Assembly: GCA_018674305.1 (NCBI GenBank)
Contig: JABHAL010000015.1
Location: forward strand, 128,532-192,531
Length of the DNA stretch: 64,000 nt
Direction of reading: 5' to 3'
DNA from: Candidatus Falkowbacteria bacterium
GTDB taxonomy: Bacteria > Patescibacteriota > Patescibacteriia > UBA11705 > JABHMO01
Below are positions 5,931 through 54,818 of the stretch, piece by piece (positions within the stretch are counted from its first letter, which is position 1; the number at the start of each line of letters is the position of its first letter). The notes under the pieces were generated by a model. The model searched no databases. It saw only the letters and a list, made by a program, of their open reading frames with translations, and had not been told where the DNA came from. Position numbers and translations under genes: made by a program.

Positions 5931-5993
5931 GACAAACCTCCGAAATTTTAAAGATCAATCTTTATTCTAAATATTTTAGAACAAGGATTAAAC

Positions 5994-6031
5994 TTGAAAA
6001 TAAATAAGGGCAAGGCGCAAGCACCTTGCCC
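5994..6031 (-). terminator. Intrinsic terminator variant (GGGCAAGGCG-CAAG-CACCTTGCCC)
   Basis: GC hairpin with flanking A-run on plus strand, immediately after small ORF 6038..6292. Confidence 0.5.
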
Positions 6032-6037
6032 TTTGGA

Positions 6038-6292
6038 CTACTTCTTTTTACGTTTTTCCTTCAACTTCTTAACCCACGGATGCCCAGAACTCAAGAAAAT
6101 GCTGAACAATCCGATGGCGATACTCAGGAGAATTCCCGTAACAAACCAAGCCTCCTTTTTGTTAACTTCACGACCTTCGGGGTTTTCCTCAGCATCTTCT
6201 CCCATGATCCAGCCTTTAATAAAGGCAATTCCAAGAAGGAAGAAAAAGATGATAAGCACAACAATCGCAATCAAGATAATTTTTAACCACAT
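6038..6292 (-). CDS. Small 2-TM membrane protein (84 aa) with C-terminal GHPWVKK motif; paralog of 10244..10489
   Basis: Two copies share architecture (TM - acidic loop - TM - HPWVKK - basic tail); both are followed by the GGGCAAGG hairpin. Confidence 0.5.
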   Translation of the reverse strand: MWLKIILIAIVVLIIFFFLLGIAFIKGWIMGEDAEENPEGREVNKKEAWFVTGILLSIAIGLFSIFLSSGHPWVKKLKEKRKKK

Positions 6293-6319
6293 GGCATCCC
6301 TCCTGTTTAGTGGTCCTCT

Positions 6320-7810
6320 TTACTGAAAAGTGTATTCCATATAATGATCATTAGCATCCTTGCCACTGATTGTCACTTCAATCCAACGAAGGTTAGAATT
6401 ACCTCCCTTCAATCCCTTGTAATATGATGTCAAATCGATCATAAATCGTGCATTTTGAGTATGATGCTTCAAATTTGCTTCAAGGTACACTTCTGGTGCC
6501 AATTTCCAAGAGAAAACAATAGGAGTCCTTTGCTTATATTGAGCTGGGGACTCTCCTTTGCTTTTCAACACCCAGGCATTCATTGTTGCATCAGTGTATG
6601 TAACTGAGACACCGTGCTTTTCCTCACCTCTGAAATAAAGCCGGCAATTTGAAGACAGAAAACCGGGCCAATTCCACTCAATATTTCGAAAAACAGGGTA
6701 TGCCACAACATTTCTAGTTTTACTGGCAGCTGGATTATTTTTATTCCAGCCAGCTGTAACAATTTCGTAATGCTTTCTATCTTTTTCTAGTTGGGCTGCT
6801 TTTTTAGCCTTCTCTTTGGCTTTTTTTTCTGCTCTTTTTTTAGCAACCCTTTCTTTTCGTAATTCAGCCTTAGCATCTTCAGCTTTTCTGTTTTCTAGAT
6901 GTACCCTTCGTTTTTCCTGTCGGGCAAATTTATTTCTTTCGGCCTCTAGACTTTTTTCTGCTGAAACCCTTTTTCGTGCTTCTTCTTTTGCTTTTTTCTC
7001 TGCAACCAATCTTTCACGTCGCTCTTTTTCAATCTTTAATTTCAGGTTTTGCTTTTTTTCTTTCTCTAACCTGATTTGTTCATTTTTTTTTTGCAACTTC
7101 TCTCTTTCTTTCCTTACAATTTCACCAGTAATGACCTGAAGCTCGCCTCCCCAGGGACAATACCCAGAGGATGCGTAAAAATGAACCGTTCCTTCAGGAT
7201 CAGTACAGTAGAAAAAAAGTGCCTTTCCCGTGGCTGGACTAACAAATCCAGACTCTACTCTCTCAAGTGTGACTTCGTAATTCTTGGTAGTAGCAAACTG
7301 CTTACCCTTCTCATATTTTTCAATGAGCTCGGGGGAACAACGCTGTGCCTGCTGACCAAACTTATCATAAAGAGCCTGTTCAAAAACCTGAATTTCACCA
7401 GTCAAAGGATTGACTGTGCAAAACTTAGCCATAGCCGGTCCATCAATAGGATGAACCAAGGAGTCCCCTTGAATCAGGAACATTGCCAAGGAATGCAATG
7501 CAAAAAATGCTGCAATGGTGATCATCCCCGCAAGCCGTCGATCTTTCTTCCAGCTAAAGAAAAGCCGGAAAATTGCGTACCACAGAGGTACCGCAACAAC
7601 TATTCCAATTGCCTGGGCCAGATAAGGATTCATTCCGAATCCGGAAATCTTGCTGACCACGTACGGATAAACCATCAAAAAACCAAAAATCGAAGCATAT
7701 TTAACAAGACTGATCAAAATCAGAATTGCCAATGCCACAAAAAACAACCCGAGAAACAGTTTAGCTGTCCTCTTCATAACACACCTCCAATGGTTATTTT
7801 CAACGAACAA
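6320..7810 (-). CDS. Paralog-family membrane protein (496 aa) with K/E-rich coiled-coil insert and a distinct soluble C-terminal domain
   Basis: Conserved N-module (FGFLMVYPY, FFSWKKDRR, HSLAMF, FFYCTD...GYCPWGG), then ~120 aa EKEKK/ERRER low-complexity helix and a non-TM C-terminal domain. Confidence 0.7.
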   Translation of the reverse strand: MFVENNHWRCVMKRTAKLFLGLFFVALAILILISLVKYASIFGFLMVYPYVVSKISGFGMNPYLAQAIGIVVAVPLWYAIFRLFFSWKKDRRLAGMITIAAFFALHSLAMFLIQGDSLVHPIDGPAMAKFCTVNPLTGEIQVFEQALYDKFGQQAQRCSPELIEKYEKGKQFATTKNYEVTLERVESGFVSPATGKALFFYCTDPEGTVHFYASSGYCPWGGELQVITGEIVRKEREKLQKKNEQIRLEKEKKQNLKLKIEKERRERLVAEKKAKEEARKRVSAEKSLEAERNKFARQEKRRVHLENRKAEDAKAELRKERVAKKRAEKKAKEKAKKAAQLEKDRKHYEIVTAGWNKNNPAASKTRNVVAYPVFRNIEWNWPGFLSSNCRLYFRGEEKHGVSVTYTDATMNAWVLKSKGESPAQYKQRTPIVFSWKLAPEVYLEANLKHHTQNARFMIDLTSYYKGLKGGNSNLRWIEVTISGKDANDHYMEYTFQ

Positions 7811-7850
7811 TATTTAATCTTAAATCATTAAAATCAAATATCGTTTTTTG

Positions 7851-7891
7851 AAAAAAATTAGGGGCGAAAGCAAAGTTGTTCACTTCGCCCC
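7851..7891 (-). terminator. Intrinsic terminator (GGGGCGAA...TTCGCCCC + A7)
   Basis: Same hairpin family, located after 7908..8786. Confidence 0.55.
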
Positions 7892-7907
7892 TAGCATTAT
7901 TTTAGTT

Positions 7908-8786
7908 TCAAAGATCCCTCAAATAAATGATAACTTCTCGGGGAGAAATATTAGCGCATTTTTTTCTAAGCCACCTACTTGACTGATATCTATCTCTTGA
8001 ATATTTTGTTTGTTCAATCCATTTTGGATTTGCTTTTATCTGAATCAGATAATGCAAGGCCATATTATCACATAACCACTCTGCATCGTCACCTGATACT
8101 TCGTCCTGGCTAACAAACTCATGTAACCAAGCGTGAAAAAGTTCATGCACCAAGATGGCTCTGTGCACATCAAGTGGTAACCCAAAAAGAATGCTAATCA
8201 AGTGATTCGTAACTTCTGTTTTTCCCAGAAAAGGTTGGATATATTTAGTTAAACAATTCCCCAAGGTTGTACTACCTCGATTCCTATTTCTTTTAGTTAT
8301 AATCCCAAGGGTATTCAGATCGACGACTCTATATTCAATGGGTTTCCTTGGAAACCATGAATGCAGGTGCAATATCCGACTAACACCATTTATTATACTT
8401 TGATCAATTTGAAAAACGGCATCAATTGAACAAGTCGGGCAAATTACCCGGTAATCGGCTAAGTGCATTACATCATTAGGAGCCATTTGAGAGTGACAAG
8501 TAAAACACTGAAAACGTGGATCATGGCACCCTTTGCAAACAGCACCCTGGTCAGTGTTGAAATATCGTCCGTTTATTTTATTCCTACAAAGGCAACATTT
8601 CAAAGCAATTGAGTCATAACATTGTGAATGGTATAAAGAACCATCACATTCAACAGTATTATTCCCAATTAATGGCTGACTACAGACCGAACACTTTGGC
8701 GCACGTGAATTCACGCAAAAATCACAATACGTTACATTATTCAATGTAAAAATTTGTCTCGCGGATCTACCGCAATCGCACCTCAT
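7908..8786 (-). CDS. DA1-like protein: N-terminal LIM-type Cys/His zinc fingers + C-terminal HExxH zinc metallopeptidase (HELFHAWLHEF)
   Basis: Multiple CxxC...HxxCxxC clusters in the N-terminal half; HELFHAWL closely resembles the HEMMHAWL signature of DA1-like peptidases. Confidence 0.55.
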   Translation of the reverse strand: MRCDCGRSARQIFTLNNVTYCDFCVNSRAPKCSVCSQPLIGNNTVECDGSLYHSQCYDSIALKCCLCRNKINGRYFNTDQGAVCKGCHDPRFQCFTCHSQMAPNDVMHLADYRVICPTCSIDAVFQIDQSIINGVSRILHLHSWFPRKPIEYRVVDLNTLGIITKRNRNRGSTTLGNCLTKYIQPFLGKTEVTNHLISILFGLPLDVHRAILVHELFHAWLHEFVSQDEVSGDDAEWLCDNMALHYLIQIKANPKWIEQTKYSRDRYQSSRWLRKKCANISPREVIIYLRDL

Positions 8787-8787
8787 T

Positions 8788-8901
8788 TTAATCCTTGGTG
8801 ATAAAAAAGATGATAGCGATAATGATGATAATCAGCAGAATTCCTCCACCACCCGAATCACCACCAGCAACAACGCCAAGACTAATAAGTGAATTTAGCA
8901 T
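8788..8901 (-). CDS. Micro-ORF (37 aa): MLNSLISLGVVAGGDSGGGGILLIIIIIAIIFFITKD; Gly-rich N-half + single TM; stop lies 1 nt from the ATG of the DA1-like gene
   Basis: ATG..TAA ORF below the 60-aa ORF-track cut-off; arrangement TAAAATG suggests translational coupling. Confidence 0.3.
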   Translation of the reverse strand: MLNSLISLGVVAGGDSGGGGILLIIIIIAIIFFITKD

Positions 8902-8974
8902 TTTCGTCTCCTCTAAATTTTAGTCAATGAACAATATTTATTTTCAAATTATTAAAAACAAATATTATTGATTG

Positions 8975-9008
8975 AAAAAAGTTGGGGCAGGCAAGCTAAG
9001 CCTACCCC
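8975..9008 (-). terminator. Intrinsic terminator variant (GGGGCAGGC-loop-GCCTACCCC + A6)
   Basis: Hairpin followed by U-run on minus strand. Confidence 0.5.
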
Positions 9009-9016
9009 GTTGGTTA

Positions 9017-10165
9017 TTAAAATTCATCAAAAATCTTTATACCTAAATGAAAAACGCCAATAGTCAATAGTACGTAAATTGGGATCGAAAGAACAACCAT
9101 GACAACTATATGCAATTGTGCCCAAATGAGCAGGGACAATATATCAGCAGTCAATACACTTATTACTGCTAAAAAAGGAAGCACAATAAACGCACCAACC
9201 ATAGTTGGCCCATTCCCGTCTGACAGTCCAACACATAACGTAATAATAGAAATAATTACTGACAGAACGAAGAAAATCCCCGCAATAATATTTGTTTTTT
9301 TGTGATTTCTAAATTCCCAAAACCACGCAGTATAACTTATTTGCATTTCAGATTCAGCAGGGACAACTTCAACTTCCTGTGTTGTTCCCTCGAACGTTGG
9401 AAACTCCAGTTCAAATGGGACATAAACTGACTCTTGATGCACCAAAATTTCTTTATTGGCTATTTTTGCCACAAGAACAGAACTGACAGGCAAAAGTTGA
9501 CCTCCCCAAGGACAATATCCTTCAGAAGAAAAAAAGTGTGCTTTTTTCTCAGAGTCAAAACAATAGAAGAACAATGGTTTTCCAGTTGCCGGACTTATGA
9601 AACCATCCTGCACCCTAGAAAAAGAAACTTCCTTGCTTGTTCCATCAGTAAAAGTTTTTTCTCTCTCGTACTTTTCAATCAATTCCGGTGAGCACCTTTC
9701 CGCTTTATTACCAAACTGATCATAGATAGACTGTTCAAATGTTTGAATTTCACCTGTCAAAGGATTCACAGTACAAAATTTCGCCATTGCGGGACCATCA
9801 AATGGATGAACCAAGGAATCACCTTGCAATAAAAACATAGAGAATGAATGCAAAGCGAAAAAAGCTACAATTGTAATCATGCCAGCCATTCTGCGATCCT
9901 TTTTCCAACTAAACAAAAGTCGGAAAACTGCATACCAAATTGGAATGGCTACAACAATACCGATTCCTTGCGCCAAATATGAATTCATCCCAAAACCTGT
10001 AATCTTTGTAACTACGTAGGGATAAATAAGCAAAAAACCAAAAATAGTTGCGTATTTCAGTAAACTGACAATCATTAGGATTGCCAAGCTGATAAAAATG
10101 ACTCCAAAAATTATTCCTGCTTTTCTCTTCATGTCATCCTCCACAGCGTTGGTTTCAATGAACAA
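9017..10165 (-). CDS. Paralog-family membrane protein (382 aa); closest sister of 6320..7810 in the N-module
   Basis: MKRKAGIIFGVIFISLAILMIVSLLKYATIFGFLLIYPY... FFYCFD..GYCPWGG; C-terminal TM bundle. Confidence 0.7.
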   Translation of the reverse strand: MFIETNAVEDDMKRKAGIIFGVIFISLAILMIVSLLKYATIFGFLLIYPYVVTKITGFGMNSYLAQGIGIVVAIPIWYAVFRLLFSWKKDRRMAGMITIVAFFALHSFSMFLLQGDSLVHPFDGPAMAKFCTVNPLTGEIQTFEQSIYDQFGNKAERCSPELIEKYEREKTFTDGTSKEVSFSRVQDGFISPATGKPLFFYCFDSEKKAHFFSSEGYCPWGGQLLPVSSVLVAKIANKEILVHQESVYVPFELEFPTFEGTTQEVEVVPAESEMQISYTAWFWEFRNHKKTNIIAGIFFVLSVIISIITLCVGLSDGNGPTMVGAFIVLPFLAVISVLTADILSLLIWAQLHIVVMVVLSIPIYVLLTIGVFHLGIKIFDEF

Positions 10166-14905: not shown

Positions 14906-15862
14906 CTACTTATCCCAACAAAAATTATTCCCGAAATGGCCAAACTCAGCAGTTTGTTCAAATTGAGGCTTTTTCAACTCTAATAAAGTAATAATCCCTT
15001 TAGGAGTTAAATCATAACCTTGTACATTCTCTTTGCGACCATCAATTTCCACAGTCGCCATTACCGGTTCAGCTACTCCAATTGAATAAGCTAAATGGCA
15101 AATAACTTCTTTGGCATTATTTTTTTGTAAATAATCAACAGCAATTTTTCTGGCCATGTAAGCAGCGGAACGATCGACTTTGGACGGATCCTTGCCTGAA
15201 AATGCACCACCTCCGATAGGAATTCGTGGACCATAGTTATCCACAATCAATTTCCGACCAGTTACACCAGCATCTGCCTCAAATCCTCCTTGTGACCAAT
15301 CACCAGCTGGATTAACATAAATTTTAAGGTTTTCACTTACATTTTTGTCTTTTAACCATTCTTCAACCAGCCCCTTCATTTCTTCTGCTCGAGCATGCTG
15401 AAAGCTGGCCACGACAGTTGAAATTAAATTGTTTTCTAATGTAATTTGAGTTTTGCCATCAGTTTTGTATTTAGAAAATAATACTCGACACAAATCACGT
15501 GAAAGCTTTACCTCCAAAGGAATTAATTCCGGAGTTTCACTGCAAGCATATCCAACCATGATTCCCTGGTCACCAGCACCACCCGGATCAACTCCTCGGG
15601 CAATATCTGGAGATTGCTGAACTAAATTGACACTAACTTGATATTGATCTCCAGCAATTCGTTTAGCAATTTTTTCCGCATCAAAAACCGCACCGGAAGT
15701 AATCTCTCCGGTAATTGTAATAACTCCATGCCCCCCCATTGTCTCTACTGCAACCCGTGAATGTGGGTCTTGCGATAAACAAATATCTAAAATAGCATCG
15801 GAAACACGATCACAAATTTTGTCTGGGTGCATTGGTGAAACTGACTCTGCTGTACGTAACAT
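14906..15862 (-). CDS. metK: S-adenosylmethionine synthetase (compact form, 318 aa)
   Basis: HPDKICDRVSDAILD, GGGAFSGKDPSKVDRSAAY hallmark motifs. Confidence 0.9.
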   Translation of the reverse strand: MLRTAESVSPMHPDKICDRVSDAILDICLSQDPHSRVAVETMGGHGVITITGEITSGAVFDAEKIAKRIAGDQYQVSVNLVQQSPDIARGVDPGGAGDQGIMVGYACSETPELIPLEVKLSRDLCRVLFSKYKTDGKTQITLENNLISTVVASFQHARAEEMKGLVEEWLKDKNVSENLKIYVNPAGDWSQGGFEADAGVTGRKLIVDNYGPRIPIGGGAFSGKDPSKVDRSAAYMARKIAVDYLQKNNAKEVICHLAYSIGVAEPVMATVEIDGRKENVQGYDLTPKGIITLLELKKPQFEQTAEFGHFGNNFCWDK

Positions 15863-16118
15863 AAATTCTTTGGCCGCGATGTAACCAGAAATAGTTTTTG
15901 GTTTTGTTGCAGCTTAATACTTAAATAAAAAATACTCTTTCATCACGAAAAAGTATAATAATTGAATAATTATTTATCTTTCCCGTGCTGGGCTAGAATT
16001 GACACCTTCTTGAATTACCTTCAAGGGTTGTCGACAGGTCATCGGGCTATATCCCTCACTGTACTCTTGATAAATGGTTAAATTGTATATATATAATATT
16101 ACACTAAAATTAATTTTA

Positions 16119-33831: not shown

Positions 33832-35257
33832 ATGTTCGAGATCATTAAAATAGATGGAAAGTTGTTCAGACACGAAGTATTATGCACGAAGGAATTTTTC
33901 CTACCAATGAAGAGAAAAAACCAAATTCATTGGGCAGCAATGAGTGAAGCTGAAATCATCTTGTATGCAAAAGCTTATTGTCAGCATCATGAAATCAAAA
34001 GACAGAGGCACCTTGCCAATGGAAAGAACAAACACGACGGGCTTTACAACATCCTTTATAAATCCAAATGGATGAGGCAAGTTTTCATCGTCGATGAAAC
34101 TAAACCTGTAAGACTGGGTGAGGATGATTTTATTATACCTTTGGATGGTGGCGGCAGGGTCAGCTGGAAAAGCATGTCGCGTCAGGAAAAAATTGATTAT
34201 ATAATTGCCTACTGCAAGGAGTTTAATATTACCAACTCCACACAACTCCAAAAAGGTCCTAACAAGAACCCCGGAATGCACAGTAGGTTACTTGACGATA
34301 AACTGATGACTGACATCTTCGACCGAGAAAGGCTTGAAACGTTGTGTGGAGAACCCTTTCTTATTCCTCTATGTGCAATTGACAAAGTTGCTTGGGAAAA
34401 AATGTCCGAAGACGAGATCATTGAATATGCAAAAGCTTATTGCAAACATCACAAGATCAAAGGCTCTGGGGCATTGTCAAATCACAAAACTAAGCGCAAC
34501 ACAGGCATGTACAAAGCACTCATGGACAGAACCTTGCTAGATCGAGTTTTCAGCCGACCAAAAACAAAATCCTATCCAGTCAACGGAACAACATATACTT
34601 TCCAAATTCGCAAAAACCGACAAATTGACTGGAAATTGGTAACTAAAAAGAGATTAGAAAAATTTGGTCGAGATTACTGCATCGAATACGGGATAAAAAC
34701 TCGCACTCAATTGAAAAACAAAAATGCGGGACTGTGCAACCAAAAGAGACGCCAAAGTGCTTGATCTGGTTTTGCCACAAAAATTCAGACCTTTCCCTAT
34801 TGGCCAAGAAACATTTCGTCTGCCTATGATTGGCAGCCGGATCGCCTGGAAACTTTGGACAAACCAAGAACTACTTACGTTTGCCAAAGCTTATATCATA
34901 GAACACAACATTGCGGACTCAGGAGACTTGGGATACGGAAATCATAGATTCTCTGAATTGTACAAGTGCCTGATTCGATGTGAACTCATGCATGATTTAT
35001 TTAATCTTGAAAGCGAAAGACCAGAAAAATGGCAGGAACAGGAATTTACACTTCCAATCCTCACTACCGGTGATGTAAATTGGGAAAAATTCGACAATAA
35101 AAAACTCGAAAATTATGCCAAAGCATATTGCGCGCACTTTGCGATTGTTTACCGAGAGCAACTCAAGAAAAAAAAACGAAGCACTTGTTGGGGTATTAGA
35201 AAGAAGAAAATTAATACACAAAATTTTTCCCAAAGAAACTACCGTCTTAGCCTTTGA
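33832..35257 (+). pseudogene. Tandem-repeat protein gene disrupted by at least one +1 frameshift (ORFs 33832..34764 and 34724..35257), with further decayed repeat remnants to ~35790
   Basis: ~45-aa repeat W..MSE.EII.YAKAYC.HH.I recurs six times across two overlapping frames; remnants GIRKIKPKQP / VKGIRRIERSI downstream in other frames. Confidence 0.5.
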
Positions 35258-36051: not shown

Positions 36052-36378
36052 TGGCTCTGCGAGTCGGACTCGAACCGACGACCTACTGGTTACACTTATC
36101 CAAGGATTTCTCCAGGGCGTGGACTATATCATCACCATAGCAAATGCTTTAGGCGCGAGGCGCTTCCACCTTGATGTAAAAATCAAAGTGTACTCCTAAA
36201 AAGGATAGTCTCTGAACCTTCCCCAACTAATGTTAGGGCTTGGCTGCGGATTAGCATATCACAATTGACTTAGCCTTCCCGACAATTCACCTCGTTATTC
36301 ACCCCAATGTTTCCAAAGGGGGCTGCGTTATATTTTTGTGTACACAGCCAGTTGCTCTACCAACTGAGCTATCGCAGA
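36052..36378 (-). tRNA. tRNA-Asn(GUU) (alternative reading Thr-UGU) interrupted in the anticodon loop by a 251-nt group I intron (36093..36343); exons 36344..36378 (nt 1-35) and 36052..36092 (nt 36-76 incl. CCA)
   Basis: Exons give a perfect cloverleaf: acceptor TCTGCGA/TCGCAGA, D-arm GCTC-AGTTGGTA-GAGC, anticodon stem ACTGG/CCAGT with loop CUGU|UAA, T-arm GTCGG-TTCGAGT-CCGAC, G73, CCA. Intron has Q AATCCGCAGC (exact), R GTTCAGAGACTA (exact), S ATGATATAGTCC, P AATTGTCGGGAA in canonical order. P1 pairs GGCUGU (exon) with GCAGCC (IGS) giving U.G at the splice site; omega-G precedes 3' exon. Confidence 0.8.
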
Positions 36379-39587: not shown

Positions 39588-40709
39588 CTAGAAATTGTCA
39601 TTCAACGTACGGTAGACAAAACCCTCACTGGCGGTGATAGTAGCAATGTACACATCTCCACCAACCGTAGGAATTTGATTCTTGATGTACGAATGAAATT
39701 CCGAGGTTGAATCAATCAACCACTTAATAACCTTCAGACACTCCCGCAGGGTCATATCACTCATGTGGTCAATGCTAGCCCCTTCACGAATATTTTGCAT
39801 AAGATCTTCACACATTGCCATCCCGAGCGACATACTGACACCAGCAAAGTCAAATTCATCGGTAGCCTCGTCAAAAGATCCGTCCGGAGCTCTCTTCTTC
39901 GCTTCTTCAAAAAGCGCATCGATATCTTTCAAGCCATCTTCCAACATCTTCTTAAGGTCGGACGCTGGAAGCTTCTCGGTTGGCAAAGTACCACCTTCTG
40001 CACACAAACCCAAAAGATACGTGAGCATTTCCGTGACTTTGTCTTTCAAAAGGTCTGGCAAGCGCGTATCTCTCCCCAGGATCATTCTGTCCACAACGCC
40101 AGTATCGCCAAGCGGATAAAACAACTTGCCGCTACCAAGCTTGACAAAGTCAAAGTTTATCTTCTTCTCATTGTCATGAACCTTTGACTTGTAAATGACT
40201 CTCGCAAAATAGCAAATGTAATCCTTTTGGACTGGGCAATATCCAGCAAAAATAAAGGATCCGAAACGCGAAGAGCCGTTCAATTCTTCCATGGCGACCG
40301 TCATCCTGACTTTCATGGAATTCATGTAATCCTCAAAAGCCAGATCCTCAGATGCTCCTTCTTTTTGCATTTCCTGAGCTACACTGACCACCATGTTATC
40401 AATCAAAGCATCCCCTACGGTCATCACACCGCCAAAAGGCTTCCCATCCTTGTAGAAAGTTGGAAACAACTTTTTAGCACGAAAACTTTTGATGACTGCG
40501 TCGTCTTTTGCCTGAACCATTTTTTTCATAGCTTCTGCTTTCAGAGCAGCAAGGTCGACTTCGTCAGCACCCTCCTTTTGTGCTTCATCAAACAACTCTT
40601 TGATTTCTGACCACAAGTTGACCTCAAAGAATGTGCGTGACGTAGAAACCAAACTGTCAGCTCCAAGTGCCACACCGTGCTCATTACAAATCATAATTCC
40701 TAAACTCAT
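39588..40709 (-). CDS. Hypothetical protein (373 aa)
   Basis: ORF only; acidic. Confidence 0.4.
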   Translation of the reverse strand: MSLGIMICNEHGVALGADSLVSTSRTFFEVNLWSEIKELFDEAQKEGADEVDLAALKAEAMKKMVQAKDDAVIKSFRAKKLFPTFYKDGKPFGGVMTVGDALIDNMVVSVAQEMQKEGASEDLAFEDYMNSMKVRMTVAMEELNGSSRFGSFIFAGYCPVQKDYICYFARVIYKSKVHDNEKKINFDFVKLGSGKLFYPLGDTGVVDRMILGRDTRLPDLLKDKVTEMLTYLLGLCAEGGTLPTEKLPASDLKKMLEDGLKDIDALFEEAKKRAPDGSFDEATDEFDFAGVSMSLGMAMCEDLMQNIREGASIDHMSDMTLRECLKVIKWLIDSTSEFHSYIKNQIPTVGGDVYIATITASEGFVYRTLNDNF

Positions 40710-41068
40710 GACATACCTCCACTTTGTTAAAATACAATTATATTCAACGTAATTGTTGACTGAAAATTATACACTATTGACATGATTTGTCAAGTGTTAG
40801 AACACAATTCAAACAAATTATTTAGATTGATTAACTTGAAACCTACAGTTTACACACCGACAGACTCTACTTTTTGACCCCAAAAAGTAGCAAAAAGGCT
40901 GGGGCTCCACAATTCGCTTCTTACTCTTTTAGTATATCTTTCTTATTACGGCTCAATGTTCTGCCCCAGACCCCGCCCTGCTATTTTTGGTCATTGCGAT
41001 AAAAGGACACGAAATCCCAAATTAATATCAAAACAATGTCTTAGAAAGAAATACTGTCCACACATCGT

Positions 41069-41644
41069 CTAAACAACCAAATATGCAATATCTAATCCTA
41101 TATCAAATCTATTATACTTTTCAAAGTTAAAACCCTCTAAGCCAGGATAATGAAAAAGGTCTTCGATCTTCTCATTTTTCAATGCATCATGATAGTTATA
41201 AATAATAATTGACCCACCTGGCGCTAAAAAGTTTTTCAACTTTTCAACTACGCTTTTTCTGTCCTTTTCATATAATAAATATGGTTCCAAAATAATATAC
41301 TTAAATTTTATTTCCGTAGAAAATAAATCGATTGAACAGCAATAAAAGTTTTCATTGAACTGCGGTAAAATCTCTTCTTTGGCCTGCTCGATCGACTGCT
41401 CCAAAAAATCAACGCCATACGGAACAACATTCAGATTAGAAAAGTATGTTAAATGGCGCAACAATAAACCATTACCACAACCTAGATCCAAAACATTGCC
41501 ATCTTCCTCTAGGTATTGCAAAAAACTATTATAAATATCCATTGGATAATCTTTGAAACCGTTTACATTAATCAATCCAGGCGTTTGTTCCAGCCAATAT
41601 TTTTCATAAAACTGTTTTTGTCTTGTCTCGTAAAAATTACTCAT
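41069..41644 (-). CDS. Class I SAM-dependent methyltransferase, co-transcribed with the rSAM gene (8-nt overlap)
   Basis: VLDLGCGNGLLLRHL motif I. Confidence 0.65.
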   Translation of the reverse strand: MSNFYETRQKQFYEKYWLEQTPGLINVNGFKDYPMDIYNSFLQYLEEDGNVLDLGCGNGLLLRHLTYFSNLNVVPYGVDFLEQSIEQAKEEILPQFNENFYCCSIDLFSTEIKFKYIILEPYLLYEKDRKSVVEKLKNFLAPGGSIIIYNYHDALKNEKIEDLFHYPGLEGFNFEKYNRFDIGLDIAYLVV

Positions 41645-42752
41645 AAATACTAGCTTTTATGTGTTCAATTAGCTGTATTGTTTCCCGACAATAAATTGAC
41701 GGTGCGTCATAAGTATCTTTGCCTGTATGTCGGAAAGCGTGGCCACCAGAACCGCAAATATTCAAATAATCACAACTCACACATTGCTCCGGCAAGTTAA
41801 CTTCCGATTGGTGTAGAGCTTTTACTTTGGAATGATCAAAGAAATCAACCAATTTATTTTTCTGTACATTCAGACCAAGTTCCACAAAACCATCTCCACA
41901 AATTCTCAGATCATCAACTAGCTGGATACTTCCATCGGTGTCAATTGTCAACATATCTAAACCTGAATGTCGAATCGAACACATCGGCTCATTAGAACCA
42001 ATTAATAAATCAATTATACTATCAAAAATTCTAATCGACACTTCAGGATCGTCCATAGCTAAATATTTTTCAAAAATCGGTTTTAACCAATCGAAATATT
42101 CACTTTTATTTTCATTATAACCAAAAGGGTTATGCGGATTTCTAAGTGGTAACAAAAAGTCAACTTTTTTCACACCCAATTGCAGGAAATGATCATACAA
42201 TTCCAAAGGATCACTCTTGCTATCTATCACGCACAGTAATCCACGAAAACAGGCTGGATCAGCCTTGGCTTGCAACTGTTTCAAACCGCGGACAATGTTA
42301 TTATATGAATCTTCACCGGACTTCATTTTTGATTTGTTTTGTACATCAGGACCGCCATCCAGACTTATACCGACTTTTAATTTATGTTTGTTAAATAATT
42401 CAATGAATTCATCATTTATCAAGGTTCCATTGGTTTGCATTGAAACACCCACACCTGGAATCTTGTTCAGGTTAGTCAAAATATAATCTAACTTTTCAAG
42501 TCCCAAAATTAATGGTTCACCACCGTGCAAAACAACTTCTAACTGCTCAACCTTATTTTCCTTTACATACTCCGTCAGACGCTGACACACTTTTTCAATC
42601 ATGGCAGAAGAAATAATTGGTGGTTTTTTATTAAAACTATTGTCCGGCCCGCTAAACATAAAACAGTGCGGGCAAGCCATGTTACAAACTTCAGTAACTT
42701 TGAAAACAACTGTACTAATTATTTTGTCGTAAGCTCTTTCATTTATTTTCAT
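41637..42752 (-). CDS. Radical SAM enzyme with C-terminal SPASM/twitch domain (peptide-modifying maturase-like)
   Basis: CNMACPHC (Cx3Cx2C) near N-terminus; C-terminal Cys cluster RICGDG...CVSCDYLNICGSGGH...YC. Confidence 0.8.
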   Translation of the reverse strand: MKINERAYDKIISTVVFKVTEVCNMACPHCFMFSGPDNSFNKKPPIISSAMIEKVCQRLTEYVKENKVEQLEVVLHGGEPLILGLEKLDYILTNLNKIPGVGVSMQTNGTLINDEFIELFNKHKLKVGISLDGGPDVQNKSKMKSGEDSYNNIVRGLKQLQAKADPACFRGLLCVIDSKSDPLELYDHFLQLGVKKVDFLLPLRNPHNPFGYNENKSEYFDWLKPIFEKYLAMDDPEVSIRIFDSIIDLLIGSNEPMCSIRHSGLDMLTIDTDGSIQLVDDLRICGDGFVELGLNVQKNKLVDFFDHSKVKALHQSEVNLPEQCVSCDYLNICGSGGHAFRHTGKDTYDAPSIYCRETIQLIEHIKASIYE

Positions 42753-42813
42753 AGGTGTTCTTAATAATCAAAATAGTTGAGAGCAGGTAAAAAACCCACT
42801 CTCTCAATTCTGA

Positions 42814-42921
42814 CTATCTAAGCCATTGCGCGTGCATTGACTTTAATTCACCGGAAACGTTTTTTGCTTCTACTCTTTTCAGAGCTTTTGCCAAAAGGCT
42901 CATGTTCTTTAAGCTTTTCAT
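42814..42921 (-). CDS. Candidate RiPP precursor peptide (35 aa, no Cys): MKSLKNMSLLAKALKRVEAKNVSGELKSMHAQWLR
   Basis: Unannotated small ORF 61 nt upstream of and co-directional with the rSAM-SPASM gene; helical leader-like N-half and aromatic/basic C-terminal HAQWLR; hairpin TTGAGAG...CTCTCAA between peptide ORF and rSAM gene. Confidence 0.4.
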   Translation of the reverse strand: MKSLKNMSLLAKALKRVEAKNVSGELKSMHAQWLR

Positions 42922-43039
42922 ACTTTTGATTATTTAATTAATTAATTATATAAATAGCCTTGGTTACTAACAGTTAACTATCTTGCTTAGATTATATTGA
43001 TTTTCAATTATGAAAACTACTGAAATTTTCAAGAAAACA

Positions 43040-43066
43040 AAAAAGCACTAAATTTAGTGCTTTATG
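43040..43066. terminator. Bidirectional terminator (AAGCACTAAA/TTTAGTGCTT perfect palindrome flanked by A/T runs)
   Basis: 10-bp palindromic stem between 43144..43521 and the peptide/rSAM cassette. Confidence 0.5.
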
Positions 43067-43143: not shown

Positions 43144-43521
43144 TTATCTTGGCCACAACCGAGGCTTATTACGTGGTGTAGCATATCGTTGTTTCTTCCA
43201 GTTATATCTACAAAATGTACAGGTATCAGGAGTTTTAATTACCGACAACTGACTTGAAGTTCCCCGGTAACTTAAACAGGCCAAACAAAAATGATAACAT
43301 CTGTAACTTATTCCCATTCCGTATGTATCGACGTGGCTCAACATACAAACCAGTTCTTCTTTGCCACACACAGGACACTTTATTTCAAATATCCGAACCC
43401 AACAACGACGGGCGCCAACCGAGTTTCTAACCTCTTTTAATATTCCATGTAGCTCCCCAACAGGTACAGCATCTAGAACCGTTCTAATCCTTTTTTTCAA
43501 AAGCCATTGTCTAATGCCCAT
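43144..43521 (-). CDS. Zinc-finger hypothetical protein (125 aa)
   Basis: CPVCG...C...HFCLAC...CTFC clusters. Confidence 0.4.
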   Translation of the reverse strand: MGIRQWLLKKRIRTVLDAVPVGELHGILKEVRNSVGARRCWVRIFEIKCPVCGKEELVCMLSHVDTYGMGISYRCYHFCLACLSYRGTSSQLSVIKTPDTCTFCRYNWKKQRYATPRNKPRLWPR

Positions 43522-43594: not shown

Positions 43595-44065
43595 TTATAT
43601 TTTGTTATCTCTTATCATTTCAAACAACTCATCCACTGGAAATTGCAAATCCTTTTTCTTTAGCTTACTTACATCAACCCATTCCGGTTTTTCGGATTCA
43701 TCATCCTCAACTTGATAGTCTTCCGCCAATTCAAAACCAAGTGGTTTACATTCAAAAAAGAAGCAATAATTCTGCCAAGCGTTGTCCGTCGGATCGTAAT
43801 AGAACATTGTTTTTTTGCGGGCAAGCAATTCTCCAACTTCAACATCTATTCCGCATTCTTCGTGTGTCTCCCGCTTAACAGCATCTTCCATCTCTTCACC
43901 AATTTCCACTTCCCCGCCCGGCAAAAACCATTTACCGGGACTCTTGGTATTAACTAACAATATTTTTCCTTCATGTTTAATAATCCCGTAGGCAGAGACC
44001 CGGTTGGTAAATTTTTCTTTTGGTAGCATTACGTAGTTACCGTTTATTGAGCGGGCTTTTAGCAT
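43595..44065 (-). CDS. NUDIX hydrolase
   Basis: Nudix box GGEVEIGEEMEDAVKRETHEECG. Confidence 0.8.
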   Translation of the reverse strand: MLKARSINGNYVMLPKEKFTNRVSAYGIIKHEGKILLVNTKSPGKWFLPGGEVEIGEEMEDAVKRETHEECGIDVEVGELLARKKTMFYYDPTDNAWQNYCFFFECKPLGFELAEDYQVEDDESEKPEWVDVSKLKKKDLQFPVDELFEMIRDNKI

Positions 44066-44172
44066 AGGTAAATATCAGTTAAAAGTTGAAAGCTAAAAAG
44101 TTTATAAAGTTGAAAATTATAATTCTTCTATATCTATATTACAACCTTTCAGCTAAAATTACAACCCGAAAT

Positions 44173-44682
44173 TTATTTCTTCAGCGCCATTTCATAAACA
44201 TCATAATCCGCCTGCGCATAGCAAACAAAAACAACCTTTTCAAAACAATCATCCTCTTTTATAAAATCCTGGACTGTATCAACGGCGATTTTGGCGGCCT
44301 TTCGTTTAGGATAACCGAATACACCGGTTGAGATACACGGAAAAGCGATTGATTGACAATTATTTTCTTTGGCCAATTTTAAACTATTCAAATAACAATC
44401 CCGAAGCAGGTTCGGTTCTTCCCCACCATGCTGACCGTATCTTGGACCAACGGCATGAATAACATATTTTGCTGGTAACTCATGACCTGAAGTTATTTTC
44501 GCCTGACCAGTTTTACAACCACCAAGTTTGGCACATTCAAGTTTCAACTCATAGCCAGCGCCCGAATGGATTGCGCCGTCCACTCCGCCACCACCAAGCA
44601 AAAGTTCGTTAGCCGCATTAACAATTGCGTCAACTTTTTGGTTGGTGATGTCGCCTTTTTCAAGAAAGATTTTAGTTTTCAT
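44173..44682 (-). CDS. Macro domain protein (ADP-ribose/O-acetyl-ADP-ribose processing, YmdB-like)
   Basis: VDAIVNAANELLLGGGGVDGAIH...YVIHAVGP...IAFPCISTGVFGYP. Confidence 0.8.
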   Translation of the reverse strand: MKTKIFLEKGDITNQKVDAIVNAANELLLGGGGVDGAIHSGAGYELKLECAKLGGCKTGQAKITSGHELPAKYVIHAVGPRYGQHGGEEPNLLRDCYLNSLKLAKENNCQSIAFPCISTGVFGYPKRKAAKIAVDTVQDFIKEDDCFEKVVFVCYAQADYDVYEMALKK

Positions 44683-47604: not shown

Positions 47605-47958
47605 TCAAATACCAAAATGTTTTTTTAAGTATAATCTTATTTCATGCATAATATTATTCCCGGCATGACCGATGACGCCGCAGAAACGACTATAATCACA
47701 GGAAGCAATGTTGTAAACCTTAATTAGAGAATTGCTTTTTAAATTATTTTCATTATCAGCATGAATAATTATATCATCATCAACTTTATTCGTTAAATTA
47801 CCTGTCAAAGGTATTACTGTTACTAAATTTGATCTGCTGATCTGCTTATTTGTTTGAATAACCACAGCCGGTCTTTTATCCTGGAATTCATGGCCGATAC
47901 TGGGATCAAACTGCGTCCAAACAATATCACCAAATTCTATTTGTCCTTTTTTGAGCAT
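47605..47958 (-). CDS. MazF/PemK-family type II toxin (endoribonuclease)
   Basis: GDIVWTQFDPSIGHEFQDKRPAVVIQ matches the PemK/MazF N-terminal signature; overlaps upstream antitoxin gene by 22 nt. Confidence 0.75.
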   Translation of the reverse strand: MLKKGQIEFGDIVWTQFDPSIGHEFQDKRPAVVIQTNKQISRSNLVTVIPLTGNLTNKVDDDIIIHADNENNLKSNSLIKVYNIASCDYSRFCGVIGHAGNNIMHEIRLYLKKHFGI

Positions 47959-48800
47959 AAATTTTCATAATAATTATATTCTTCTTTTGATATAGGGCCA
48001 AGATGCTTCAGGGAATCTACGCCAGAAGCATTTTGCCATGCTTGCCAATGATCAACCTGTGCGTATGGCGTTTCTCGGTCAACAGTTAATTCATAAGGAA
48101 TGACTTCATTTTTTCCCATAACCTTCCAGGGAATATCTTCATGAACATATTGCTCAATCTGGGCCGCTGACATATCTGACAATTTAGCAATAACATCATC
48201 AATTACATTTTTTTCTTTGATTGAAAAATTATCCAGATTAAAATCACCCAACGCGACATATCTTTTTTGCTTCATATCATGATATTCTTGAATGAAAATT
48301 TTAATCCGGTTTTCAGTTTCCATTTTCTTAATCACGGTTCGGAATTGAATTGACTGAGGTACCGGACCAAACTGCAATTTAACATAACTCAGGCCAATAA
48401 TCGGTTTGCCCCATTTTTCATAACTATTAAAATCAATAAAGTACAACAATTTATACAAAACAGTTTCTCCGACATTTGGCTTACCGCCACATTTATTTAA
48501 AACATAAAGTAAAACCTGCTGTAATTTCTCAGGATTGAATTCTATATCTTTATTTACTTCTACATCAGAAGGACTAGTTTCATTCTTGTTTATTTCCGAA
48601 ACAAGTAGCTCGTCAATTTTCACGCCAAAAAAAGTGGCGATTTTAGATAATTCAAATACTTCTACTCCCCTGTTTCCGGTTTCAATTGCCGACATGGCTG
48701 GACGAGAGATTCCAACATATTTAGCCAGTTTTGCCTGACTAACCTGTCTTTCTTCGCGCAGACTTTTAATTGTTTGACCCAATTGTTGTTTATTTATCAT
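47937..48800 (-). CDS. Antitoxin-like protein: N-terminal XRE-family HTH + C-terminal DUF4065 (Panacea/SocA-like) domain
   Basis: QAKLAKYVGISRPAMSAIETG HTH; LYKLLYFIDFNSYEKWGKPIIGLSYVKLQFGPVP DUF4065-like; own promoter TTGACA-N17-TATAAT at ~48812-48840 (minus strand). Confidence 0.65.
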   Translation of the reverse strand: MINKQQLGQTIKSLREERQVSQAKLAKYVGISRPAMSAIETGNRGVEVFELSKIATFFGVKIDELLVSEINKNETSPSDVEVNKDIEFNPEKLQQVLLYVLNKCGGKPNVGETVLYKLLYFIDFNSYEKWGKPIIGLSYVKLQFGPVPQSIQFRTVIKKMETENRIKIFIQEYHDMKQKRYVALGDFNLDNFSIKEKNVIDDVIAKLSDMSAAQIEQYVHEDIPWKVMGKNEVIPYELTVDRETPYAQVDHWQAWQNASGVDSLKHLGPISKEEYNYYENLCSKKDK

Positions 48801-53238: not shown

Positions 53239-54009
53239 CTAACTTTCTTTTATCCTATATTTACCTGAGTTTACTAACTTCACACTATTATAATCATCCT
53301 CATTTTCGAATTTAAATTGCCAAATAGAATAACTATTTTCTTTAATATCTCGCTCAAAAAACAAAATAATAACTTTCTTTTCTGTACAAACTTGCCATTG
53401 CCTAAATGGATAATAAAGTTGTCTTATGATCGTATTGCTAACGCCAGGCCTTTTTGCCTCAACCAAAACAATTTGGTTTTCTCCCTCATAACCAGCATCT
53501 ACTTCTGTCTGGACACTCGCTGTTTTAATCTCTTGACTCCCAACTTTAAAATGAAATTCCGGCGTGTATTTTCGACCACGAATTGTCAGAACAAGTGTCG
53601 GATCGTCCATAAAAGTTCTGATTAAACTTGAGGCATAGGCAAAATCTAGATGTTGCATCTCAGAGTCTCCTACATCTGAGGAATCCAAGTGAAATTGTAA
53701 TTTAGACGAGTATATTTCAATTTCTTTATTTATTTCTGGCATATCCAGATAACCCTCCCCTTTTATAATATTATATATTCCATTTTTAACGGGAAGAAGA
53801 AATAGATTGTTTTTTTGAAAAATTTTCGGACGGGACTCTCTTGTGTCCTGCTTACAAAGGATTCGAACCTCCTTTTCTGCAGTTTTTTTAAATCTTTGAC
53901 ATGAAACTTTAATTTGCGGTGCGGTTAATACAAATGGTTCTTTATCAAAGTCGTGCTCATTAATGTTATAATCACGAAATATTTTTGCCCATGATTTGCT
54001 GTTTGCCAT
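53239..54009 (-). CDS. Putative type II restriction endonuclease (PD-(D/E)XK)
   Basis: EVDAGYEGENQIVLVEAKR (D...E.K) motif; starts 2 nt after the MTase stop. Confidence 0.5.
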   Translation of the reverse strand: MANSKSWAKIFRDYNINEHDFDKEPFVLTAPQIKVSCQRFKKTAEKEVRILCKQDTRESRPKIFQKNNLFLLPVKNGIYNIIKGEGYLDMPEINKEIEIYSSKLQFHLDSSDVGDSEMQHLDFAYASSLIRTFMDDPTLVLTIRGRKYTPEFHFKVGSQEIKTASVQTEVDAGYEGENQIVLVEAKRPGVSNTIIRQLYYPFRQWQVCTEKKVIILFFERDIKENSYSIWQFKFENEDDYNSVKLVNSGKYRIKES

Positions 54010-54011
54010 AA

Positions 54012-54818
54012 TTATAATAGTTTACGATTTTTAGATTTCAATATTTCATTGAATCTTTGCTTTGACAAATCCAAATATTCTTTTTCCATATCAAGCCCAA
54101 CAAAGTGACGTCCATGCTCATACGCGGCAATCCCAGTTGTTGAACTGCCCGTAAAAGGGTCAAGAATTAAATCTCCTTTATTTGTACTTGCAATAACAAT
54201 TCTTTTTAGCAAATCCAAAGATTTTTGTGTAGGATGTTTGCCAAAGTTTTTCTCTGATTTTTTTGGAGTATTAATTGACCAAACAGATCTCATTTGCAGA
54301 CCAGGCTTCTTCATCTGATCTTCCGGCCAATCACCATTTTTCATTTCCTGATAATTAAAGGTGTGCTTCGCCTTTTTCTCTTTTCTCGCCCAAACCAATG
54401 TTTCGTGACTAGCAGTGAAAAATCTACAACTTAAATTTGGTGATGCGTTTGGCTTAAACCATGAAATATCATTTAAAACATGATAGCCGGCCAACTGCAA
54501 TGCAAAGCCACACTGATAGACAGAATGATAGGTTCCGCTAACCCAAATAGTACCATTTGGTTTCAATACCCTTCGACATGCGTTTATCCAATCTAAATGA
54601 AAATTAAAGTTTTCTTGGTGTCCTTTACTTAAATCCCAGTCCCCCTTTTTCACACTCACCATTTTACCATTCTGACAGGTAAAACTACCGCTGGAAAGAA
54701 AATATGGCGGATCGGCAAAAATCATATCAAAAATATCTGGTGGGAACTCCTTCAGAATTTCCATTGAGTTTCCATGATATAACTTGAATTTAGGTTTTTG
54801 AAAGTATGGTTTTTTCAT
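54012..54818 (-). CDS. DNA methyltransferase, beta-class N6-adenine/N4-cytosine (DPPY)
   Basis: Motif IV FADPPY precedes motif I ILDPFTGSSTTG (beta-class order). Confidence 0.8.
   Translation of the reverse strand: MKKPYFQKPKFKLYHGNSMEILKEFPPDIFDMIFADPPYFLSSGSFTCQNGKMVSVKKGDWDLSKGHQENFNFHLDWINACRRVLKPNGTIWVSGTYHSVYQCGFALQLAGYHVLNDISWFKPNASPNLSCRFFTASHETLVWARKEKKAKHTFNYQEMKNGDWPEDQMKKPGLQMRSVWSINTPKKSEKNFGKHPTQKSLDLLKRIVIASTNKGDLILDPFTGSSTTGIAAYEHGRHFVGLDMEKEYLDLSKQRFNEILKSKNRKLL

What the first reader, a model, noticed from the sequence alone, without database searches (positions are those of the whole stretch)
41069..42921. RiPP-like cassette: 35-aa Cys-free peptide ORF - radical SAM/SPASM enzyme - SAM methyltransferase
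An unannotated ORF (MKSLKNMSLLAKALKRVEAKNVSGELKSMHAQWLR) sits directly upstream of, and co-directional with, an rSAM protein with Cx3Cx2C plus a C-terminal SPASM-type Cys cluster. An 8-nt-overlapping class I methyltransferase follows. rSAM-SPASM maturases that act on Cys-free peptides form C-C/C-N crosslinks on aromatic residues (streptide Lys-Trp, PqqA Glu-Tyr, darobactin, three-residue cyclophanes). The peptide C-terminus HAQ-WLR has two consecutive aromatic-X-polar triads. A hairpin between peptide and enzyme genes could set stoichiometry. No such cluster is expected in a reduced genome.
Basis: partly seen in the sequence, partly recalled or inferred. Interest (0 to 1): 0.75.

Follow-up and report, generated by a model that had tools for sequence, protein, structure and literature searches.

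The report
Three-gene cyclophane-type peptide maturation cassette
A tiny-genome (CPR, Candidatus Falkowbacteria) bacterium carries a compact operon: a 35-residue peptide ending in HAQWLR, a radical-SAM enzyme of the kind that staples aromatic side chains into small rings, and a methyltransferase; the trio is conserved in about a dozen unrelated metagenomic genomes and appears to be an undescribed branch of a known natural-product class.

Summary
On the minus strand lie a 35-aa Cys-free ORF (42921-42814), a stable hairpin, a 371-aa radical SAM enzyme (42752-41637) and a class I methyltransferase that overlaps it by 8 nt (41644-41069). The enzyme's best matches are cyclophane-forming peptide maturases (NCBIfam YhhB and FxsB; PDB ChlB, E 1e-50), not AnSME, but it and its relatives score below every curated family cut-off. 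The small ORF is real. Eleven independent loci (28-63% GC) encode a 32-41 aa (59 aa as called in L013) Lys-rich peptide ending in K-[ST]-x-H-x-Q-W-[LI]-[RK], with synonymous codon variation. The aromatic (H, W) and third (Q, R/K) positions are fixed and the middle positions vary, as expected for two adjacent three-residue cyclophane (triceptide) motifs. The methyltransferase is fused to the rSAM in five loci and overlaps it by the same 8 nt in five others. The family is very rare: three 50%-identity clusters among 1.84 billion representatives, and one of 185,579 reference genomes. No description of it was found. The chemistry and the methylation site are inferred, not shown. A proteasome-fold protein next door is a tentative leader peptidase. 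Verdict: new variant of a known kind, moderately interesting.

The parts
43042..43063 (-). Terminator-like hairpin of the preceding gene; marks the upstream boundary of the cassette's transcription unit
   Evidence: 9-bp stem plus T-tract (AAAGCACTAAATTTAGTGCTTT TTTGTTTTCT).
42939..42995 (-). Two candidate promoters with perfect TATAAT -10 boxes (-10 boxes ending near 42990 and 42944) between the upstream terminator and the peptide start; weak evidence
   Evidence: own scan; 8-9 of 12 matches. The region is AT-rich and the count is not above chance.
42814..42921 (-). Precursor peptide gene: Lys-rich leader of about 26 aa plus C-terminal core K-S-M-H-A-Q-W-L-R-stop
   Evidence: Homologous peptides lie upstream of the enzyme in 11 of 12 loci. 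W is invariant and K27/H30/Q32 are at least 90% conserved. Codons vary synonymously. The gene has no SD, but only 14 of 49 genes in the window have one.
42779..42803 (-). Stable stem-loop followed by a U-rich tract between the peptide and enzyme genes; likely a partial terminator that raises the precursor:enzyme transcript ratio
   Evidence: The position is conserved without sequence conservation, and several other loci have canonical terminators there.
41637..42752 (-). Radical SAM peptide maturase of the FxsB/YhhB/ChlB cyclophane-synthase superfamily; no N-terminal RRE domain
41069..41644 (-). Class I SAM-dependent methyltransferase, translationally coupled (8-nt overlap); fused to the rSAM in homologs
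   Evidence: The same 8-nt overlap occurs in L007, L012, L013 and L131.
39588..40709 (-). Tentative accessory: 373-aa proteasome-fold (Ntn-hydrolase) protein with N-terminal Ser2, Asp18 and Lys80 in the Thr1/Asp17/Lys33 arrangement; candidate leader peptidase with its own consensus promoter (40793..40766)
   Evidence: It stays linked to the cassette only in the closely related genome L131/L132, whose outer flanks differ. It is absent from the other loci.

Best explanation
This is a minimal RiPP (ribosomally made, post-translationally modified peptide) operon of the triceptide / three-residue-cyclophane type. The 35-aa peptide is the precursor. Its Lys-rich, probably helical leader, with a conserved [KR]-[ILV]-[ILV]-x-[KR] element, docks on the radical SAM enzyme. 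The enzyme reductively cleaves SAM, abstracts a side-chain hydrogen (C-beta of residue i+2 in characterised relatives) and joins that carbon to the aromatic ring of residue i. The expected sites are His30-Ala-Gln32 and/or Trp33-Leu-Arg35, giving one or two adjacent strained rings in the C-terminal hexapeptide HAQWLR (-2 Da each). The co-translated class I methyltransferase then adds a methyl group to the peptide; N-methylation is slightly favoured, but the atom is unknown. The hairpin after the peptide gene lets more precursor than enzyme transcript accumulate. Shown: gene order, homology, peptide conservation pattern, enzyme-methyltransferase fusion, hairpin. Inferred: the cross-link sites and chemistry, the methylation target, leader removal (possibly by the neighbouring proteasome-fold protein), and the biological role.
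For: The enzyme's top families are cyclophane-forming maturases: YhhB 307 bits, FxsB 283, XyeB 159, all aligned end to end. The closest solved structure is the ChlB triceptide synthase, E 1.4e-50 over residues 15-367. The peptide is conserved upstream of the enzyme in 11 of 12 distinct loci spanning 28-63% GC, with core K-[ST]-x-H-[ASN]-Q-W-[LI]-[RK]. Every degenerate core codon varies synonymously. The Omega1 and X3 positions are fixed and the X2 positions vary, matching the published Omega1-X2-X3 definition (PMC11499958). There are precedents for His-x-Arg/Lys/Ala and Trp-x-Arg/Asn rings made by YhhB, HtkB, HaaB and XncB. rSAM and methyltransferase are one polypeptide in five loci and overlap by 8 nt in five others. 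In a related genome the leader has six substitutions while the core is identical. A stem-loop follows the peptide gene in most loci. An all-vs-all comparison shows only rSAM and methyltransferase recurring with the peptide.
Against: No experiment has been done. The enzyme and all five clade members tested fall below the curated cut-offs of every named cyclophane family, so the chemistry is transferred from relatives about 30-35% identical. Gln as X3 was not among the precedents I could read. Lys27 is also conserved (at least 90%) and could instead take part in a larger Lys-Trp type ring or be a cleavage site. The auxiliary-cluster cysteines differ from canonical SPASM. The methyltransferase is absent near two clade members (L005/6, L008), and its nearest non-cassette homologs occur in unrelated contexts, so methylation of the peptide is not proven. 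No protease or exporter is conserved.
Confidence: 0.75

Rival explanations
1. Same RiPP cassette but different chemistry. The rSAM would make a larger or different link, for example a streptide-like Lys27-to-Trp33 carbon-carbon bond, a Trp-C5 to Arg-C-gamma link as in WprB, a C-N or C-O bond as in darobactin/dynobactin, or a non-cyclising change such as epimerisation or hydroxylation, rather than i-to-i+2 C-beta cyclophanes.
For: Lys27 is conserved as strongly as His30 and Gln32. The enzyme is below all family cut-offs. It has clade-specific Cys258 and Cys285 that ChlB and FxsB lack, and C258 aligns with an AnSME Aux-I ligand. rSAM cyclophane synthases are known to make C-C, C-N and C-O links on three- to five-residue motifs (PMC11499958; WprB abstract).
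Against: The nearest families (YhhB, FxsB, ChlB) all make three-residue rings. The fixed/variable/fixed pattern repeated twice fits two Omega1-X2-X3 motifs better than one long ring. DynA, DarE and StrB-type models score far lower (117 bits or less).
Confidence: 0.15
2. The small ORF is a cis-regulatory leader or ribosome-arrest peptide. Together with the downstream terminator hairpin it would attenuate transcription of the rSAM-methyltransferase genes, and the enzymes would act on some other substrate.
For: The architecture of small ORF, then terminator-like hairpin, then enzyme genes is that of classic attenuators, and it recurs in most loci. The conserved residues lie right at the stop codon in 9 of 11 peptides. 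Arrest peptides are also conserved at the amino-acid level.
Against: Two loci extend the peptide beyond the motif (…WLRS, …WLRDWNKSA), separating it from the stop codon. Hairpin distances and sequences are not conserved and no alternative anti-terminator pairing was seen. Every characterised relative of the enzyme modifies an adjacent small peptide. No alternative substrate gene recurs.
Confidence: 0.05
3. The rSAM is a protein maturase such as an anaerobic sulfatase-maturating enzyme or a quinohemoprotein/cofactor maturase, and the peptide ORF is incidental.
For: AnSME is a detectable homolog (TIGR03942 151 bits; PDB 4k37 E 7.9e-26). One plasmid homolog is annotated 'arylsulfatase regulatory protein'.
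Against: The AnSME score is less than half its cut-off and far below the cyclophane families. No sulfatase or dehydrogenase gene lies nearby. Most AnSME Aux-I ligands are missing. The peptide is conserved with the enzyme across 11 loci.
Confidence: 0.02

Closest known systems
YhhB (NCBIfam NF041707), triceptide synthase making Tyr-C3 or His-C2 to Arg-C-beta three-residue cyclophanes
   Same: It is the best-scoring family (307 bits, aligned 1-365 of 369). It is a His-accepting enzyme with a basic X3 residue, an adjacent small precursor, and a size of about 370 aa without an RRE domain.
   Different: The score is well below the 445-bit equivalog cut-off, for the whole clade as well (274-310). 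The precursor motif (H-x-Q-W-x-R/K at the extreme C-terminus) differs. A methyltransferase partner or fusion is not reported for YhhB in what I could read.
FxsB family (TIGR04269) with FxSxx-COOH precursors
   Same: It is the second-best family (283 bits), and the next-nearest database relatives are FxsB proteins at 31-37% identity. Both have the modified motif at the extreme C-terminus, and both have Gly in place of the fourth SPASM Cys.
   Different: The score is below the 370-bit cut-off, whereas genuine FxsB proteins score 381-489. There is no FxS motif. The clade has extra Cys258 and Cys285 that FxsB lacks.
ChlB rSAM domain (PDB 9gm3), multiple-cyclophane synthase acting on Tyr-Asp-Arg motifs, naturally fused to an alpha-KG HExxH hydroxylase domain
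   Same: It is the closest solved structure (E 1.4e-50, residues 15-367). It provides a precedent for a triceptide rSAM fused to its tailoring enzyme (reference cited in PMC12912966).
   Different: The fusion partner here is a class I methyltransferase, not an alpha-KG enzyme. ChlB lacks Cys258 and Cys285. The match is a distant one over a full-length alignment (175.6 bits, E 1.4e-50).
HtkB / HaaB (His-Thr-Lys and His-Ala-Ala cyclophanes) and XncB/XyeB (Trp-x-Arg/Asn)
   Same: They show that His-C2 and Trp rings linked to the C-beta of residue i+2 are made by this enzyme class. HAA is close to the HAQ motif here.
   Different: They are different enzyme clusters with different hosts (Betaproteobacteria, Xenorhabdus). 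XyeB scores only 159 bits here.
Streptide (StrB), WprB, darobactin/dynobactin maturases
   Same: They are rSAM enzymes that cross-link Trp to Lys/Arg side chains in Cys-free peptides.
   Different: They belong to other rSAM lineages with much lower scores (DynA 117, DarE 85 bits), and they make longer or different ring topologies.
PQQ (PqqA/PqqE) and mycofactocin (MftA/MftC)
   Same: Each has a very short precursor whose conserved extreme C-terminal residues are cross-linked by an rSAM-SPASM enzyme, with strong core conservation across distant taxa.
   Different: There is no homology above background to PqqE or MftC models, no PqqB/C/D or MftB/D/E/F genes, and no evidence for a cofactor role.

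Membership tests
Triceptide / three-residue cyclophane RiPPs (3-CyFE systems) | Radical SAM enzyme with a CX3CX2C cluster motif | tested here: met
   C23/C27/C30; Pfam Radical_SAM 54 bits.
Triceptide / three-residue cyclophane RiPPs (3-CyFE systems) | C-terminal SPASM/Twitch-type auxiliary Fe-S domain homologous to those of characterised 3-CyFEs | tested here: met
   Full-length alignment to the YhhB, FxsB and ChlB models. CX2CX5C plus a distal Cys is invariant. The fourth SPASM Cys is Gly, exactly as in FxsB and ChlB. Cluster number and occupancy are not testable here.
Triceptide / three-residue cyclophane RiPPs (3-CyFE systems) | Adjacent, co-directional small precursor carrying conserved Omega1-X2-X3 motif(s) (Omega1 aromatic) | tested here: met
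   H-x-Q and W-x-[RK] are conserved in 11 loci, and the X2 positions vary. Definition taken from PMC11499958.
Triceptide / three-residue cyclophane RiPPs (3-CyFE systems) | Aromatic carbon to C-beta(i+2) covalent bond in the product (-2 Da per ring) | not testable with these tools
   Requires co-expression plus MS/NMR.
YhhB (NF041707, equivalog) | Score at or above the curated cut-off of 445 bits | tested here: not met
   307 bits for the window protein and 274-310 for clade members.
FxsB family (TIGR04269) | Score at or above the curated cut-off of 370 bits | tested here: not met
   283 bits for the window protein and 238-291 for the clade, while true FxsB proteins score 381-489.
FxsB family (TIGR04269) | Precursor with a C-terminal FxSxx-COOH motif | tested here: not met
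   The peptides end in H-x-Q-W-x-[RK]; there is no F-x-S.
Anaerobic sulfatase-maturating enzyme (TIGR03942) | Score at or above 349 bits, a full set of Aux-I/Aux-II Cys ligands, and a sulfatase substrate gene | tested here: not met
   151 bits. The equivalents of C261, C276 and C330 are missing. No sulfatase lies in the window.
Canonical SPASM domain (Pfam PF13186; seven-Cys motif) | CX9-15GX4C ... CX2CX5CX3C ... C | tested here: not met
   There is no Pfam SPASM hit at E<=0.01. The spacing is C258-x15-G-x10-C285, and the fourth Cys is replaced by Gly.
Proteasome-type Ntn hydrolases (for the neighbouring 373-aa protein) | Proteasome alpha/beta sandwich fold with an N-terminal nucleophile, Asp17 and Lys33 | tested here: inconclusive
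   [not shown]

The most novel reading that the evidence does not exclude
The conserved, methylated, (bi)cyclic C-terminal hexapeptide is not a conventional antibiotic. It would be a dedicated small effector, either a signal or cofactor-like molecule (compare PQQ and mycofactocin, which are also carved from the extreme C-terminus of a tiny precursor by an rSAM-SPASM enzyme). Ultra-small episymbiotic CPR bacteria would use it in dealing with their hosts. It would move horizontally as a two- or three-gene module (seen next to integrase, transposase and conjugation genes in other loci) and would be processed in Falkowbacteria by a novel Ser-nucleophile proteasome-fold peptidase.
Probability: 0.12. 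Interest if true: 0.8.

Novelty: new variant of a known kind. Interest (0 to 1): 0.55.

Why it matters
The cassette would add a distinct branch to the cyclophane (triceptide) RiPPs. That branch has a new precursor family with two back-to-back ring motifs (His-x-Gln, Trp-x-Arg/Lys) at the extreme C-terminus, an rSAM lineage with its own extra cysteines, and a natural rSAM-methyltransferase fusion not described in the literature I could search. It occurs in at least two CPR lineages (Falkowbacteria and Saccharibacteria), organisms with minimal genomes whose chemical interactions with hosts are almost unknown. Retaining a specialised peptide-maturation module there implies a useful function. At 1.85 kb and three genes it is directly testable by the standard E. 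coli co-expression and MS workflow, and strained His/Trp cyclophanes are of interest as constrained peptide scaffolds.

Tried and rejected
(1) I scanned JGI metagenomes for the peptide core alone (KTxHAQWL[RK]). It gave 116 matches. Of the 80 loaded, only one (L070, the same contig as L002) was a true precursor. The others were in-frame chance matches inside larger proteins or an unrelated repeat, so the scan added no new loci. (3) The genome-contig scan with the clade profile returned a single reference genome. That is useful for rarity but not for taxonomy. (4) Annotated plasmids and phages hold no clade member and no rSAM-methyltransferase fusion. (5) The defence-system reading is rejected, because PADLOC gives only partial rSAM-core similarity to viperins. 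(6) P0170 (839 aa) looked like a new architecture but is a tandem double FxsB-like rSAM, not a clade member. (7) The methyltransferase structure and fold search showed a generic class I fold with N-methyltransferases (NodS, NTMT1, pavine NMT) on top. This is not decisive for the target atom. (8) Two key subscription papers (the triceptide landscape, JACS 2022, and the ChlB structure, JACS 2025) were not available, so I could not check whether this cluster appears in their similarity networks. (9) An all-vs-all search for a conserved protease or transporter found none. (10) No clear terminator was found downstream of the methyltransferase.
Full report
OBSERVATION. The three co-directional ORFs are on the minus strand exactly as described. 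The peptide runs 42921..42814 (35 aa, MKSLKNMSLLAKALKRVEAKNVSGELKSMHAQWLR, no Cys). The radical SAM protein runs 42752..41637 (371 aa). A class I methyltransferase runs 41644..41069 (191 aa) and overlaps the rSAM stop by 8 nt. The 61-nt spacer between peptide and rSAM folds into a 10-bp stem-loop (42803..42779; -26.8 kcal/mol, z = -4.9, none of 200 shuffles as stable) followed by a U-rich tract, and it is flagged terminator-like. A separate terminator-like hairpin at 43063..43042 closes the preceding gene. Two perfect TATAAT boxes lie between it and the peptide start; this is weak evidence in AT-rich DNA. The peptide gene has no Shine-Dalgarno motif, but only 14 of 49 genes in the window have one, so that is normal here. 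Identical proteins are recorded from Candidatus Falkowbacteria (CPR/Patescibacteria).

WHAT THE ENZYMES ARE. Against NCBIfam the rSAM aligns end to end with cyclophane-forming peptide maturases: YhhB 307 bits, FxsB 283 and XyeB 159, compared with anaerobic sulfatase maturase 151. All are below the curated cut-offs of 445, 370, 450 and 349 bits. Pfam sees only the Radical_SAM core and no SPASM domain. The nearest solved structure is the rSAM domain of the triceptide synthase ChlB (9gm3, E 1.4e-50, residues 15-367), far ahead of AnSME (7.9e-26). The alignment shows CX3CX2C (C23/27/30) and an invariant CX2CX5C…C set (C324/327/333/355). The canonical fourth SPASM cysteine is Gly, as it is in FxsB proteins and ChlB. 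The clade additionally has C258, which aligns with the AnSME Aux-I ligand C255, and C285; FxsB and ChlB lack both. The domain is therefore SPASM-derived, with one complete auxiliary site and a partial second one. There is no N-terminal RRE domain. The methyltransferase is a standard class I enzyme (Methyltransf_31/23/25). Its model is confident (pLDDT 92) but generic. The best full-length structural matches are N-methyltransferases (NodS TMq 0.72, NTMT1 0.67), which is only a weak lean toward N-methylation.

IS THE SMALL ORF REAL? Protein search found a tight clade at 45-60% identity, then a drop to FxsB-type proteins at 37% or less. I fetched the neighbourhoods of the clade members. Eleven distinct loci encode a 32-41 aa (59 aa as called in L013) Lys/Arg-rich peptide immediately upstream of, and co-directional with, the enzyme. 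The loci are the window, L131/132, L012, L007, L005/006, L009/010, L011, L001, L013, L002/003 and L004, and they span 28-63% GC. All the peptides end in K-[ST]-x-H-[ASN]-Q-W-[LI]-[RK]. Every degenerate codon of the core varies synonymously (His CAC/CAT; Ala GCG/GCA/GCT; Gln CAA/CAG; four Leu codons; five Arg codons), so selection acts on the protein and not on a DNA or RNA motif. In the closest relative (rSAM 87% identical) the leader carries six substitutions while the last ten residues are identical. The twelfth locus has the most divergent enzyme (L008). Its peptide ends …LQIWARK: it keeps W-x-R, has no His, its enzyme lacks C258, and no methyltransferase is nearby. Public collections hold these peptides only as unnamed or hypothetical proteins.

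WHY A CYCLOPHANE (TRICEPTIDE-TYPE) READING. Triceptides are defined by an aromatic-to-C-beta bond across Omega1-X2-X3 motifs (PMC11499958). Characterised enzymes make His-C2 to Arg, Lys or Ala-C-beta rings (YhhB HNR, HtkB HTK, HaaB HAA) and Trp to Arg/Asn rings (XncB). In the alignment here the Omega1 positions (H30, W33) and X3 positions (Q32, R/K35) are fixed, while both X2 positions vary (A/S/N and L/I). That is the signature of two adjacent motifs. The most likely product is therefore a C-terminal hexapeptide with one or two three-residue rings. This is inference from homologs about 30-35% identical. Lys27 is equally conserved and could instead mark a cleavage site or take part in a longer ring.

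THE METHYLTRANSFERASE BELONGS TO THE SYSTEM. In five loci the rSAM and methyltransferase are a single 543-583 aa polypeptide (P0007-P0010, P0013). In the five loci where they are separate, they overlap by the same 8 nt, consistent with translational coupling and easy fusion or fission. Two loci (L005/6, L008) have no methyltransferase in the fetched DNA. More distant homologs of the methyltransferase (35-48%) are stand-alone enzymes, and one sits in an unrelated archaeal context. Methylation is therefore a frequent but not obligatory tailoring step. ChlB provides a precedent for a triceptide rSAM fused to a tailoring domain (alpha-KG HExxH). I found no report of a methyltransferase fusion.

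THE HAIRPIN. A stable stem-loop follows the peptide gene in most loci, with unrelated sequences. Eight of 12 have z <= -2.8, and L011, L002, L008, L013 and L012 have canonical stem-plus-U-tract terminators. It also creates the one structural rival, a regulatory attenuator peptide. I rate that rival low because two peptides extend past the motif and no other substrate gene recurs.

FAMILY STATUS AND RARITY. Five clade members score 274-310 bits on YhhB and 238-291 on FxsB, all below cut-off, whereas genuine FxsB proteins score 381-489. An exhaustive HMMER search of 1.84 billion 50%-identity representatives finds only three clade clusters (572-602 bits) before the score falls to 384 and then into the FxsB continuum at 320 or less. 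The 839-aa hit is a tandem double rSAM and not a member. Only one of 185,579 GTDB species representatives carries the clade, a Candidatus Saccharibacteria MAG. Annotated plasmids and phages have none. Other loci sit beside an integrase (L009), transposases (L004) or conjugation genes on a 63% GC contig (L001), which suggests horizontal spread; that is inference. RiPPs in CPR bacteria are not unprecedented, since graspetides have been reported there (PMC8939145), so the 'reduced genome' argument is softened.

VERDICT. The cassette is best described as a new, rare variant of the triceptide-type rSAM RiPPs: a new precursor family, a distinct enzyme clade with extra cysteines, and a coupled or fused methyltransferase, found in CPR bacteria and a few other uncultured organisms. 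The chemistry, the methylation site, leader removal and the biological role remain to be shown. The system is small enough to be tested directly by co-expression and mass spectrometry.

Noticed in passing
window 36100-36353 (-): Full-length group I intron (RF00028, 80.5 bits), but no rRNA, tRNA or obvious protein exon around it (ARAGORN found no tRNA in the whole window). The adjacent + strand ORFs 33832-35257 contain internally repeated modules that might be homing-endonuclease-like.
   Followed up: partly
window 15971-16076 (-): SAM riboswitch (RF00162, 68 bits) directly upstream of a short MetK-like SAM synthetase gene (14906-15862). This is relevant background for a genome that runs two SAM-consuming enzymes in the cassette.
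   Followed up: no
[not shown]
   Followed up: partly
window 1929-10165 (-): Five or six paralogous membrane proteins in tandem share an N-terminal module (…YA.F.GFLM.YPY…LG.GLN.YLA…) and a conserved Cys-containing extracellular segment, with divergent C-termini. This is an expanded surface-protein family.
   Followed up: no
window 43144-43521 (-); L131 704-913; L002 3274-3659: Small Cys-rich (zinc-ribbon-like) proteins lie immediately upstream of the precursor gene in three loci. No sequence similarity between them was detected, so this may be coincidence.
   Followed up: partly
L004 307-2235: The contig carrying one fused rSAM-methyltransferase cassette has a second, unrelated rSAM-SPASM gene (387 aa, 24% identical) flanked by a 201-aa and a 60-aa ORF and by IS transposases. 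This may be another peptide-maturation module on the same island.
   Followed up: no
L011 3874-4410: A GNAT acetyltransferase follows the fused rSAM-methyltransferase by 23 nt in this locus only. It could be an extra tailoring step.
   Followed up: no
window 47605-48800, 53239-54818, 43595-44682: Accessory and defence-type genes cluster around the cassette: a PemK/MazF-like toxin with an HTH partner, a restriction-modification pair, and NUDIX and macro-domain proteins. The region may be a variable genomic island.
   Followed up: no
P0170: An 839-aa protein made of two tandem FxsB-like radical SAM maturase domains. This is an unusual double-rSAM architecture unrelated to the present clade.
   Followed up: partly
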